Shown here piece by piece: positions 25,267 through 28,508 of a stretch of DNA of 64,000 bases; position 1 is the stretch's first letter, and every line of letters begins with the position of its first letter. Location of the stretch: positions 75,392,001-75,456,000 of the forward strand of contig OX597816.1 of assembly GCA_951406725.2 (NCBI GenBank), written 5' to 3'. Both the position numbers and the translations under genes were made by a program. The stretch comes from Octopus vulgaris. Its lineage: Eukaryota. A model generated the notes under the pieces. That model was not told the DNA's origin, did no database searches, and saw only the letters and a list, made by a program, of their open reading frames with translations.

Positions 25267-25450
25267 TTTTGTTGTGTCTAGGGAGAATCATCATACCAAA
25301 ATAATTAACACACACACTCGTTCAATTCCACTTGTTTATTAAAATATCTGATGGGGGGGGGGGGGGTCAAATAAAATATTTAATAAATGAGTGGAATTGA
25401 ATCAGTGTGTGTGTTAATTATATTGGTATGACTCTCCCTAGACAACAAAA
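25267..25450. repeat. Fold-back element: about 80-bp imperfect inverted arms around CTGAT-poly(G) spacer
   Basis: ttttgttg..tctagggaga..tcataccaa..aattaacacacacact..ttcaattccact..tttattaaa is mirrored by its reverse complement. Confidence 0.9.
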
Positions 25451-25673
25451 TTTGTTTCAACACACAAATTCATATAAAGAATCTTGCAAACCAGATACAA
25501 AAATGAAGTATATAATCATCTATTTTAGAAATTAAAAAGTCTTAAAATAAGGATTTCTTTTTTGTTTAGATAGGGATCTAACCAAAATTATGATATGGAA
25601 GTGTCATAATCATTTGAACCAGCCTTAGTATATTCTACATTTTAATTCCAGTTGCCAGGAAAGTATCTAATAT

Positions 25674-25910
25674 TAAACAATTGAAGCGTGGAAGGTGTTT
25701 ATAAACCATTTAAGAAACACACAAAAACCGTTAGATTCACTTCAACATTTAAATTTAATTTGTCAAAATATTTTCATCGCTTTGAGACCGCGACCTGTTC
25801 ACTGACAAAATTCCGTGCTGACAAATTAAATTTAAATGTTGAAGTGAATCTAAAGGTTTTTGTGTGTTTCTTAAATGGCTTATAAATACCTTCCACGCTG
25901 CAATTGTTTA
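25674..25910. repeat. Fold-back element: 92-bp inverted arms (4 mismatches) around a 53-nt spacer
   Basis: 25674-25765 is the reverse complement of 25819-25910. Confidence 0.95.
25759..25809 (-). ncRNA. Minimal type-I hammerhead ribozyme-like motif, G3-C8 core variant
   Basis: - strand: TTTGTCA GTGAACA G GTCGC GGTCTCAAA GCGAT GAAA ATAT T T TGACAAA = 7-bp stem I, GUGAACA core, 5-bp stem II, GAAA, palindromic stem III, UH. Confidence 0.6.
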
Positions 25911-28508
25911 TTATTAAAAATTGGTATATCCAATTATGTTACACTGCTAAATTCAGTGGCTGTTTAAGCAATGCTTGGGATGGTTTAATGGTTTGGATCT
26001 AGTGCTGAAGGAGCATTAATTCCTGAAATATGCACACACACCCATTACCTATTTTTCTATCTTCGATTGCATTGTTTGCAGACACATTTATATATGAAAT
26101 GTCATAACTCTCAATGCTGGCACTAATTTCTATAGAAAATCTCTAATGATAATTTTAAAGTGATTCTACATTTTATACATTAAAATACTGTTGTATAAAA
26201 ATAATACTCTGCTATTTCAAATATTTTGAATATTCAGCAGACTTGTAAAAATTCTATGCTAAATCATGCAAAATAGCAGGCATCAATCCTACTTTTCCCA
26301 ACTTGAAAGTATTTAATATTGCTTAAGTATTTGTTACATTCTTAATATTTTATTTCCACTGCAATTAGTTTGGATTATTTAATTTCTGTTTTCAAGTGGT
26401 CACATTTAAATTTTGGCTTTTCTCCACAATTATAACTCTCTGTTTTAATTATGAAGACATAATCAAAACCCAATGTACATTCAAAATATTAGATATATTT
26501 TCTAAATCCTACAGTACATCAACTCATAAGAAAATTACAAATTGCCATTATCCCTAACCATGACATCTTTTCCCTCCATTCAGATGAGTCTGTTTCACAA
26601 AAATATTTTTTGTTTTTGTTGGTTTTTTTATCAGAATATATTTACAATTGAAAAAAAAAAAAAAAAAAATGACAAGTAGAACAATTTTTCTATCATAAAT
26701 TCAGTATATTGAATTTATTTCTTCGGTTGCTTTTATAAATTTCTATAAAAATTTATTGTTTGTTGATTAATTTACTTTAATTTTTTTTTTCATTTTCTTC
26801 ATATACCTTAACTAAACGCACATGTTGAAAATGGAGTGCTTTTAACATAATGTGCAACTTAATCTTCTTAATTCGATATCTGGAAAACAGATATTAGTAA
26901 GAAAGGCAATTATGCTAAAACTTTTACTATAATTTATAAATGAAATTACTCATTTATTTCTTCACCTCTTAATAATTTACTTAAATGCATTTAATATTAC
27001 TCTTCAAATTTTGAAACTGGAACCTGCACATTTCATTTCTTATAAATATATATATGTATATATCATCAAGGGCACATGGCTTGGTGGTTAGGGTGTTGCA
27101 TTCATGATCTAGTGATTGTGATTCCTAGACTGGGTGGTGCATTTTTTCTTGAGCAAAATACTTCACTTCGTGTTGCTCTGTGATCACTTTGACACTTGTG
27201 CACCTGTTCGGACAATGTCGATTTGATGGAGAGAGTGAGCTAATGTGCAGCATGGACATTTGATCACTATAAACAAATCATATGTGCAGGTCGTTCAGCA
27301 AAAGCTGAATGCTCATACATCATCTTCAACAGGAGAGTCCATCATATATATCATCACCATCATCATTTAACATCCATATCCCATGCTAGCATAGGTTGAA
27401 CAGTTCAGCATGATCTGTCTAACCAGAGGGCACCAACGTCCTCACTGACAAGGTGTCTTCAGCTAGGTGCCTTTCCTAGTGCTGTCACAGGAGAAGCACC
27501 CAGTACACTCAGTACAATGGTTGACCAGCCGTAGAAACTATGCCAAAGCAAATATTGGACACCTAGTGACACCAGCAGCATAAAAATTTAATAGGAAAAT
27601 GAAAACTATCATCATTCATTCATGTAGTAAACCAATAAATTTTAATTAATCAAAATCATAGCTTCAATAATCACATCATAATATCACCGTTTAAAGTCTG
27701 TTTTCCATGCTGGCATGGTTGGATGGATCAACAGGAGCTGACAAGCTAGAGGAATGTGCCAAACCCCAATATCTGCTTTGGCATGGTTTCTATGGCTGAT
27801 ACCCTTCCTGATAACAATCACTTAACAGAGTACATCAGGTGCTTTCTACATGACACTGGTACCAGTGAGGTCACAAGTAACTTGCAAGACAAGACTCAAC
27901 TGAGGGGTGTAACAGATGTCTTGCTGTAGAGGAAATACATGGTTAAGAAGAATTATTTTCTATATGGTTAATTTTAGAAGGCTATTTTAATGAACTGGTA
28001 CTTATTTTATGAACCCCAGTATGTGTTTATACTCAGAACAAGTAGGGATGTAACTAGGTACCCCACAGGCATTTTGTCTGTAGTTCTACCGATTCTGCCA
28101 AATAATAATTTACTATCATTTCAACATGATTTTAACATCTTTTTTCATACTCCATGGGTCATACAGAATTTCTTGACAGATTTTCTGTAACCTGATGCCC
28201 TGCCTATCACCAACCCTCACATGTTTCCATGTAGGGTAATATTTCTCCATGACTAGACACGTTTTCATGGAATACTGGAAATGAAAGATACTAACTGCAT
28301 GAGGGTGACACTTATCTACAGCTATTATGCAAAGTCAATACATGTAGACAGAAACACATACACACATATATACAATGGTCTTCTCTCAGTTTCCATCTAT
28401 CAAATCTACTCACAAGGTTTTGGTAGGTCAGTGATTGCAGAAGTAGACACTTGCCCAAAGAGTAAAAAAAGAAAAAAGAAACATGTTTTTACTACAAAAT
28501 GTTTAAAA

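What the first reader, a model, noticed from the sequence alone, without database searches (positions are those of the whole stretch)
25674..25910. Fold-back element enclosing a minimal hammerhead ribozyme with a swapped G3-C8 core
Seen: on the - strand, 25809-25759 reads TTTGTCA|GTGAACA|G|GTCGC-GGTCTCAAA-GCGAT|GAAA|ATAT|T|T|TGACAAA. That gives a perfect 7-bp stem I, a core GUGAACA, a 5-bp stem II after one extra G, GAAA, a self-complementary stem III (AAAATATTTT) and a UH site, all inside two 92-bp inverted arms with 4 mismatches. Established: the hammerhead core is C3UGANG8A, C3-G8 is a base pair that tolerates compensatory swaps, and Penelope-like elements carry minimal hammerheads with palindromic stem III that cleave as dimers. 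A search for CUGANGA would miss this motif. The 3' strand of stem I is also the end of one long arm, so the ribozyme fold and the long hairpin are mutually exclusive. Inference: a young, non-coding, ribozyme-carrying PLE derivative with a built-in conformational switch.
Basis: partly seen in the sequence, partly recalled or inferred. Interest (0 to 1): 0.85.

Follow-up and report, generated by a model that had tools for sequence, protein, structure and literature searches.

The report
Swapped-core hammerhead in a Penelope retrotransposon
This hairpin is two head-to-head scraps of the front end of a Penelope-like retrotransposon, present thousands of times in the genome, and it carries a likely hammerhead ribozyme whose central base pair is flipped (G3-C8) in the whole family; the fold-back is likely a by-product of insertion, not a switch.

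Summary
The motif and the 92-bp arms are real. The G3-C8 core is the family state, not decay: 1,114 exact copies of the core; 122 of 141 copies not chosen on the core. The ~207-nt unit is not a non-coding derivative. It is the 5' UTR plus the first codons of an autonomous RT + GIY-YIG Penelope-like element of Neptune type. The fold-back is the known PLE insertion anatomy: two independently 5'-truncated copies head to head, with a junction that varies by copy and a ~57-nt tail on one arm (43 of 51 pairs); 34 of 89 loci have no fold-back. So the 'built-in switch' is not supported. Four related lineages in this genome carry the motif at the same place before the ATG, with G3-C8, G3-C8, C3-G8 or U3-A8 and compensatory stem pairs, which favours a selected hammerhead. 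Cleavage is untested: copies show no pile-up at the cut site, and pair-broken G3-G8 copies also spread. My searches found G3-C8 only as an engineered partial rescue; one key paper could not be read. New variant of a known kind.

The parts
25675..25820 (-). Copy 1: 5'-truncated piece of the element's 5' end (unit positions 9-153): 5' UTR with the hammerhead, then the first 11-12 codons; ends at the short (tail-less) 3' end
   Evidence: 95.9% to the family majority over 146 nt; the same sequence continues into the ORF in L346, L368, L373
25819..25909 (+). Copy 2: inverted, more truncated copy (unit positions 64-153), joined head to head with copy 1 through a 2-nt overlap; also ends at the short 3' end
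   Evidence: 96.7% over 91 nt; the junction position varies among other insertions
25759..25809 (-). Predicted type I minimal hammerhead: stem I 7 bp, stem II 5 bp (first pair G.U in this copy, G-C in the family), palindromic stem III region; predicted cut between 25766 and 25765
   Evidence: sequence; positions and shuffle control; cross-lineage covariation
25796..25802 (-). Core GUGAACA: G3 (25802) and C8 (25797) in place of C3 and G8
   Evidence: G3-C8 in 122 of 141 copies not chosen on the core; 1,114 exact genomic matches of a 35-mer holding it, 0 for the reversed control
25707..25709 (-). Inferred start codon of the element's ORF in copy 1, 93 nt after position 3 of the core
   Evidence: in L346 the same ATG opens a frame 39% identical over 122 aa to the N-terminus of a sister family's 1,309-aa ORF, E 9e-26
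25875..25877 (+). The same ATG in the inverted copy 2
   Evidence: 10 of 11 residues match the N-terminus of L346
25668..25675 (.). Possible left target-site duplication (8 nt, one mismatch to 25909-25916); weak in this copy
   Evidence: read from the sequence; in other insertions duplications of >= 8 nt flank 25 of 32 non-microsatellite pairs against 21 of 600 mismatched flank pairs
25909..25916 (.). Possible right target-site duplication
   Evidence: as above

Best explanation
The locus is a short insertion of two head-to-head, 5'-truncated copies of the 5' end of an autonomous Penelope-like retrotransposon (RT + GIY-YIG, likely Neptune clade), whose 5' UTR holds a predicted minimal hammerhead ribozyme with a family-wide G3-C8 core. 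Shown: the unit's continuity with the ORF, its two fixed 3' ends about 57 nt apart inside the first 30 codons, the variable head-to-head junction, target-site duplications and (TA)n neighbours, the G3-C8 majority, and the three different 3-8 pairs in four related lineages. Inferred mechanism, by analogy with the anole element PAc (PMC11167929): the element's protein binds its RNA near the start of the ORF, nicks both strands of AT-rich DNA and starts reverse transcription inside the RNA at two sites, one per strand. When the RNA begins in the same pLTR, only ~150-210 nt lie upstream, so each cDNA is short; the two cDNAs join at their truncated ends, often by microhomology, and give the fold-back with a tail on one arm. 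The ribozyme would be a slow, dimer- or protein-assisted cutter acting on long tandem transcripts, and is likely not needed for insertion. The hairpin has no role of its own.
For: Continuity with the ORF: L346 reads pLTR-ORF-pLTR and the unit runs on in frame (this copy carries a stop and a frameshift); other copies do the same, including the window's subfamily (L368, L373). L336 holds a 1,025-aa open frame with GIY-YIG above Pfam's cut-off, a C-x3-C-x2-C motif before it and a YSRYVDD motif; its best database hit is named as reverse-transcriptase-domain-containing. Anatomy in 89 loci picked on an arm pattern: 51 head-to-head pairs (43 long+short, 2 short+short, 6 other), 34 single copies, 4 complex; 3' ends cluster at 147-155 and 201-210. 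A sister family ends at the same two codon positions. Duplications of >= 8 nt in 25 of 32 non-microsatellite pairs versus 21 of 600 controls; 33 of 85 insertions touch a microsatellite. PMC8557442 describes the inverted 5'-truncated copy and a tail at either end; PMC11167929 maps the tail to two internal RT starts; there the first start lies about 85-92 nt after the cut site (my arithmetic), here 90 nt. Selection on the fold: non-consensus letters at non-CpG sites are 2.9% in the core, 2.3% in stem III, about 5% in stems I and II, 12.3% in loop II and 18.0% in the 5' flank; a younger subfamily replaced loop II and kept the rest; the commonest stem I variant turns A-U into G.U (29 of 141). Across lineages: lineage B has C3-G8 and double changes in stems I, II and III; lineage C has U3-A8 in 4 of the 5 copies parsed; lineage D has G3 in 10 of 14 and C8 in 8 of 14 decayed copies picked without regard to the core, none C3-G8.
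Against: No cleavage was measured. Only 3 of 146 copy 5' ends lie at the predicted cut site, all at or beside the 7-nt stem I microhomology, while 86 of 146 keep the whole core: cDNA was made on uncut RNA. Pair-broken cores spread: 74 G3-G8 places among 3,026 (hand count of the listing), with G8 in both arms of L185 and L187 and in ORF-linked copies L360 and L363. Within the family there is no real 3-8 covariation: 0 of 38 non-G3 places are C3-G8, and the 3 C3-G8 copies seen can be secondary (in L162 the other arm is G3-C8). Lineage B has C where the conserved A9 should be, so the lineage tolerates core drift. Stem I is not predicted to dominate in longer contexts (probability 0 in L368, 0.27-0.42 in L233). 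The cross-lineage comparison is four lineages aligned by hand on anchors, not a statistical covariation test. Pfam RVT_1 did not hit the ORF, and no tree against reference clades was built.
Confidence: 0.8

Rival explanations
1. Same origin, but the G3-C8 motif is a vestigial or nearly dead hammerhead: it is kept as an RNA structure for protein binding or translation control, or simply inherited from an ancestor in which the swap happened.
For: G3-G8 copies were mobilised; no 5'-end pile-up at the cut site; A9 is lost in lineage B; in PAc ribozyme mutants did not affect insertion and no RNA ends mapped to the cut site (PMC11167929); the engineered C3G/G8C rescue is only partial.
Against: Three different Watson-Crick states at 3-8 in four lineages, with U4 G5 A6, GAAA and UH kept while loop II and N7 vary, is what selection on the catalytic fold predicts; G3-C8 lasted through the split of lineages A and D.
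Confidence: 0.3
2. One reading: a non-autonomous, non-coding element whose RNA is the fold-back and switches between hairpin and ribozyme.
For: In this copy the two folds exclude each other. Short copies far outnumber ORF-bearing ones: a 99-aa N-terminal query gave 215 candidates in all families against 3,026 core places. Some short copies could be re-transcribed and re-mobilised.
Against: The junction differs from copy to copy and 34 of 89 loci are single; the tail sits on either arm; duplications flank each pair as one event; the unit holds the ORF start. The only repeated junction seen belongs to one copy carried inside a larger amplified repeat with shared flanks.
Confidence: 0.04
3. A non-LTR retrozyme: tandem monomers cut by the ribozyme, circularised and reverse-transcribed from the circle.
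For: Type I minimal hammerhead; some tandem arrays (L077-L082); retrozymes are proposed to derive from PLE pLTRs (bioRxiv 10.64898/2026.07.22.740005).
Against: Tandem units are separated by (TA)n of varying length, with no fixed 3'-to-5' junction; upstream of the unit lies either the flank or a long intron-like pLTR leading back to the ORF end.
Confidence: 0.04
4. A MITE or fold-back DNA transposon, or a microRNA precursor, with a chance hammerhead look-alike.
For: Long near-perfect inverted repeat; MIR2646 match at E 2e-19.
Against: The two ends are unequal and the centre varies; the MIR2646 score of 90 bits is far below the gathering score of 245 and reflects any long AT-rich hairpin; the link to an RT + GIY-YIG ORF.
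Confidence: 0.01

Closest known systems
Minimal type I hammerheads of metazoan Penelope-like elements (Cervera and de la Pena 2014, PMC4209133)
   Same: [quoted passage not shown]
   Different: G3-C8 core. In the parts read, the only natural 3-8 swap is U3-A8 (S. mansoni). Stem I is 7 bp here against 4-5 bp in the S. mansoni motifs.
PAc, Poseidon element of Anolis carolinensis (Frangieh et al. 2024, PMC11167929)
   Same: Hammerhead at the pLTR-ORF junction; two internal RT starts in the early ORF that define the tail; AT-rich targets; uncut RNA as the main template. C3G/G8C partly rescues cleavage there.
   Different: PAc is Poseidon clade with a natural C3-G8 core and its ATG at stem II. Here the ATG lies 92-93 nt after position 3, the tail is ~57 nt rather than 30-40, and G3-C8 is the natural state.
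Neptune / Nematis EN+ PLEs (as described in Craig et al. 2021, PMC8557442)
   Same: Single ORF, C-terminal GIY-YIG with a CX2-5CxxC linker, partial tandems, inverted 5'-truncated copy, tail at one end, microsatellite bias, probable 5' UTR intron (here).
   Different: Clade placement rests on motifs, not a tree. That paper's core search strings were cuganga and gaaa, plus relaxed descriptors; the exact string would miss this core.
Natural core variants of hammerheads (Perreault et al. 2011, PMC3088659)
   Same: Positions 3 and 8 form a pair that covaries in nature.
   Different: The passages read report U3-A8 only.
Animal non-LTR retrozymes (bioRxiv 10.64898/2026.07.22.740005)
   Same: Short, hammerhead-bearing, pLTR-related, high copy number.
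   Different: Retrozymes are tandem monomers without coding sequence; these units are dispersed, inverted pairs or singles, and include the ORF start.

Membership tests
EN+ Penelope-like element | Single ORF with RT and C-terminal GIY-YIG endonuclease, linked to the repeat | tested here: met
   L336 1,025-aa frame, PF01541 25.4 bits against cut-off 22.6; unit downstream of the ORF end and upstream of the ORF start. The RT is supported by the YSRYVDD motif and a database name, not by Pfam.
EN+ Penelope-like element | pLTR formed by a partial tandem | tested here: met
   L346: 1,118-nt direct repeat at 98% on both sides of the ORF
EN+ Penelope-like element | Inverted 5'-truncated copy at the 5' end | tested here: met
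   51 of 89 loci; also in long copies L336, L345-L348
EN+ Penelope-like element | Tail at one end only | tested here: met
   43 of 51 pairs have one long and one short end, ~57 nt apart; the window copy is of the rare tail-less type (2 of 51)
Neptune clade | CX2-5CxxC linker before GIY-YIG (shared with Nematis) | tested here: met
   C-x3-C-x2-C in L336 and L320; definition from PMC8557442
Neptune clade | RT phylogeny with reference Neptune elements | not testable with these tools
   no reference PLE set was on hand; no tree built
Type I minimal hammerhead ribozyme | Core C3 U4 G5 A6 N7 G8 A9 as written | tested here: not met
   G3 and C8; the 3-8 Watson-Crick pair is kept. Filed as a variant, not as a canonical member.
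Type I minimal hammerhead ribozyme | G12 A13 A14 A15.1 and U16.1 H17 | tested here: met
   window; whole core, GAAA and UH intact in 100 of 141 copies
Type I minimal hammerhead ribozyme | Stems I and II with compensatory variation | tested here: met
   double changes between lineages A, B and D; loop II and N7 vary. Hand-anchored comparison of four lineages, no significance test.
Type I minimal hammerhead ribozyme | Extra nucleotide after A9, G10.1-C11.1, palindromic stem III (PLE type) | tested here: met
   family majority; the window copy has G.U at 10.1-11.1; the 8-nt stem III palindrome pairs with itself as a duplex but not as a hairpin
Type I minimal hammerhead ribozyme | Match to an Rfam hammerhead model | tested here: not met
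   none among 12 matches at E <= 10
Type I minimal hammerhead ribozyme | Site-specific self-cleavage | not testable with these tools
   needs a bench assay; the indirect test (5' ends of copies at the cut site) was negative; only contigs, no raw reads, could be laid
Non-LTR retrozyme | Tandem monomers with a fixed junction, no coding sequence | tested here: not met
MITE / fold-back DNA transposon | Equal terminal inverted repeats around a fixed centre | tested here: not met
   unequal ends and a variable junction

The most novel reading that the evidence does not exclude
G3-C8 is a natural, active hammerhead core, so far described only as an engineered rescue. It is fixed in two Penelope-like lineages of this genome, thousands of copies strong, beside sister lineages with C3-G8 and U3-A8: three pair states evolved at one homologous site. 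CUGANGA-based surveys would have missed this class, so some PLE clades reported as lacking hammerheads may carry swapped cores.
Probability: 0.4. Interest if true: 0.62.

Novelty: new variant of a known kind. Interest (0 to 1): 0.45.

Why it matters
It would add a third natural state to the hammerhead's 3-8 pair and give a homologous series (G-C, C-G, U-A, plus mobilised G-G) for asking how much cleavage a Penelope-like element needs, which is an open question. It shows a blind spot of CUGANGA searches. The genomic copies also give support outside the Poseidon clade for the two-site internal-initiation model: two families end at the same codon positions. The fold-back itself is ordinary.

Tried and rejected
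Phage collection, blastn: no match. Rfam: only below-threshold microRNA hairpin matches. Three pairs of core matches 2.7-6.4 kb apart held no element ORF; two were duplications of a larger repeat. A first PLE family found through an ORF scrap near one copy (954-aa frame, L128) was not the partner: no similarity to the unit and no hammerhead under my descriptor. Test for cleavage through copy 5' ends: negative, and the cut site is confounded by stem I microhomology; the many junctions at 64 among L001-L030 come from selecting on likeness to the window. Search for a C3-G8 subfamily inside the family: 1 exact place of 3,026, 3 by a looser pattern; rejected as covariation. Sequencing runs: no RNA holder listed on record; the four runs laid were contigs, showing no ends and no splice joint among the rows shown, which says nothing on expression. 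The 5' splice donor was not found; whether the 5' limit is a splice junction or a start site is open. The MAFFT alignment had two rows cut at wrong places and was not used. Earlier findings of the scan: none. Lunse et al. (RNA Biol 14:1499, PMC5785218) is not held; file 1 of the PMC4209133 supplement was not searchable.

Full report
Observation. The motif and arms are as described. A descriptor for a minimal hammerhead with any Watson-Crick 3-8 pair finds this one site in the window and 2 sites in 1,000 locally shuffled windows (relaxed after to admit the G.U that this copy has at 10.1-11.1). In the 237-nt RNA the long hairpin dominates and stem I has probability 0; in copy 1 alone stem I pairs at 0.55-1.0. 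Rfam gave no hammerhead match.

A repeat family. The genome G000 is 2.8 Gb in 227 contigs. A DNA search gave 2,206 candidates, of which 40 were scored. A 35-mer holding the G3-C8 core matches exactly at 1,114 places, the reversed control at 0; 3,026 places lie within two mismatches of a canonical-core version. In 141 copies from 111 of 141 loci chosen on sequence outside the core (9 duplicate or same-cluster loci dropped first), positions 3/8 are G-C in 122, and the whole core with GAAA and UH is intact in 100; median non-CpG divergence is 3.7%. Runs of four organisms hold the unit, and loose-end consensus lines from runs X16 and X18 show the G3-C8 core. The host is probably an octopus: the best named protein hit is from Octopus vulgaris.

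The fold-back is insertion anatomy. I took 90 loci around the first 100 of 633 exact matches to an arm pattern and dropped one duplicate. Of 89, 51 are head-to-head pairs, 34 single copies and 4 complex. The 3' ends fall in two clusters, near unit positions 153 and 210; 43 of 51 pairs have one of each, and the more complete arm is the tailed one in 25 and the untailed one in 24. The 5' ends and junctions vary. Duplications of >= 8 nt flank 25 of 32 pairs and 6 of 20 singles away from microsatellites, against 21 of 600 mismatched flank pairs; 33 of 85 touch a microsatellite. PMC8557442 (passages) describes an inverted 5'-truncated copy and a 30-40 bp tail at either end as typical of PLEs. The window copy is of the rare type without a tail on either arm (2 of 51). 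A switch encoded in the element cannot rest on a junction that is made anew at each insertion.

The autonomous parent. Short copies stop at a sharp 5' limit (49 of 146 copy ends at positions 2-7). At 1,153 places this limit is preceded by a branch-point-like motif, a pyrimidine tract and AG, and further upstream by about 1 kb of microsatellite-rich sequence that leads to the end of an ORF with a GIY-YIG domain. L346 is pLTR-ORF-pLTR with a 1,118-nt direct repeat; there the unit continues past the long end in frame from an ATG inside the unit (the copy is broken by a stop and a frameshift). Copies of the window's own subfamily do the same (L368, L373). L336 has a 1,025-aa open frame with PF01541 above cut-off, C-x3-C-x2-C before it and YSRYVDD, which points to the Neptune/Nematis type; no tree was built. 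The N-terminus is 39% identical over 122 aa to that of a sister family, whose copies end at the same two codon positions. So the window holds 5' UTR plus 11-12 codons, twice. Whether the 5' limit is a splice junction or a start site is not settled: among 77 distinct junctions without the acceptor, 21 read GAG before the unit and the base before that is random, which fits a capped start or a very short first exon; no donor was found.

Mechanism. PMC11167929 (parts 1-2 of 4 and passages) showed in vitro that the anole element cuts both strands of AT-rich DNA and starts reverse transcription at two sites inside the early ORF, the tail being the stretch between them; that its hammerhead needs the protein to cleave; that C3G or G8C kills cleavage and the double mutant partly restores it; and that ribozyme mutants still insert. 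The geometry here matches: the first end lies 90 nt after the predicted cut. I infer that RNAs starting in the pLTR give short cDNAs from both sites, which join head to head. This step is inferred, not shown.

Is it a ribozyme? For: variation avoids the core (2.9% non-consensus at non-CpG sites) and stem III (2.3%) and gathers in loop II (12.3%) and the 5' flank (18.0%); stems I and II are near 5% and the 3' UTR 6.6% (these counts mix subfamily variants with neutral decay and are not independent events). A younger subfamily has a new loop II on the same stem. Four lineages carry the motif 92-135 nt before the ATG. B has C3-G8, with double changes against A in stem I, stem II and at 15.2-16.2, but C at position 9. 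C has U3-A8 in 4 of 5 copies parsed, the fifth being a separate subfamily with C3. D, old and decayed, has G3 in 10, C8 in 8 and both in 6 of 14 copies picked on the 3' half only, none C3-G8. Against: only 3 of 146 copy ends sit at the cut site, all at or beside the stem I microhomology, and 86 keep the whole core. Of the 90 places within one mismatch of the canonical core, 74 are G3-G8, 13 C3-C8, 2 A/U3-G8 and 1 C3-G8 (hand count). G8 stands in both arms of L185 and L187 and in ORF-linked L360 and L363, so a broken pair does not stop mobilisation. Inside the family there is no 3-8 covariation (0 of 38). Stem I is weak in longer contexts. I put the chance of measurable site-specific cleavage at about 0.65-0.7, and expect it to be slow.

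What is in print. PMC4209133 (parts 1-2 of 4, supplement file 2 part 1 and a term search) defines the PLE minimal hammerhead, with the extra nucleotide, G10.1-C11.1 and palindromic stem III seen here, and reports U3-A8 as the natural swap. PMC3088659 (passages) reports U3-A8. PMC3884650 (passages) and PMC11167929 mention G3-C8 only as engineered. PMC6765202 (passages) and bioRxiv 10.64898/2026.07.22.740005 (part 1 of 5) gave background. Six searches (one search failed) listed no paper that I saw report a natural G3-C8 core or octopus PLE hammerheads; most listed papers were seen only as listings. Lunse et al. (PMC5785218), the largest survey of PLE hammerhead variants, could not be read and may hold such cores; so may supplement file 1 of PMC4209133. 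Hammerhead numbering and the splice-signal motifs are from my own knowledge.

Verdict. An ordinary truncated, inverted PLE insertion, and a real, lineage-wide G3-C8 variant of the PLE hammerhead with good comparative but no biochemical support. New variant of a known kind; interest 0.45.

Noticed in passing
window 25267-25514: A second fold-back 160 nt away (arms about 25275-25343 and 25379-25444) has the same anatomy but comes from an older related PLE lineage: 87-89% to L395, ATG at 25428, one arm running about 60 nt further (tail), hammerhead part lost.
   Followed up: partly
L338-L343, L351, L352, L383, L386-L389: A sister PLE family with many intact ORFs of about 1,310 aa; its hammerhead-like motif has C3-G8 but C at the normally conserved A9.
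   Followed up: partly
L393, L401, L403, L405: An old lineage whose homologous motif has U3-A8 and only a short stem I.
   Followed up: partly
L033, L040-L042, L049, L052-L055, L057-L062, L064 (contig C1): One fold-back insertion amplified passively inside a larger repeat with shared flanks; it inflates exact-match counts on C1.
   Followed up: partly
L288-L317, unit 5' limit: Textbook 3' splice signal right at the 5' limit of short copies; 1,153 places keep the upstream intron-like sequence. Donor not found; a start site there is the alternative.
   Followed up: partly
L128-L139: Another abundant PLE family (954-aa frame with an asparagine-rich insert, 316-nt repeat) showed no hammerhead under my descriptor.
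   Followed up: no
L056 / L209: The inverted repeat runs about 50 nt into the flanking DNA instead of giving a direct duplication, which suggests an unusual repair of the target.
   Followed up: no
L162: The two arms of one insertion differ at both core positions: C3-G8 in one, G3-C8 in the other.
   Followed up: partly
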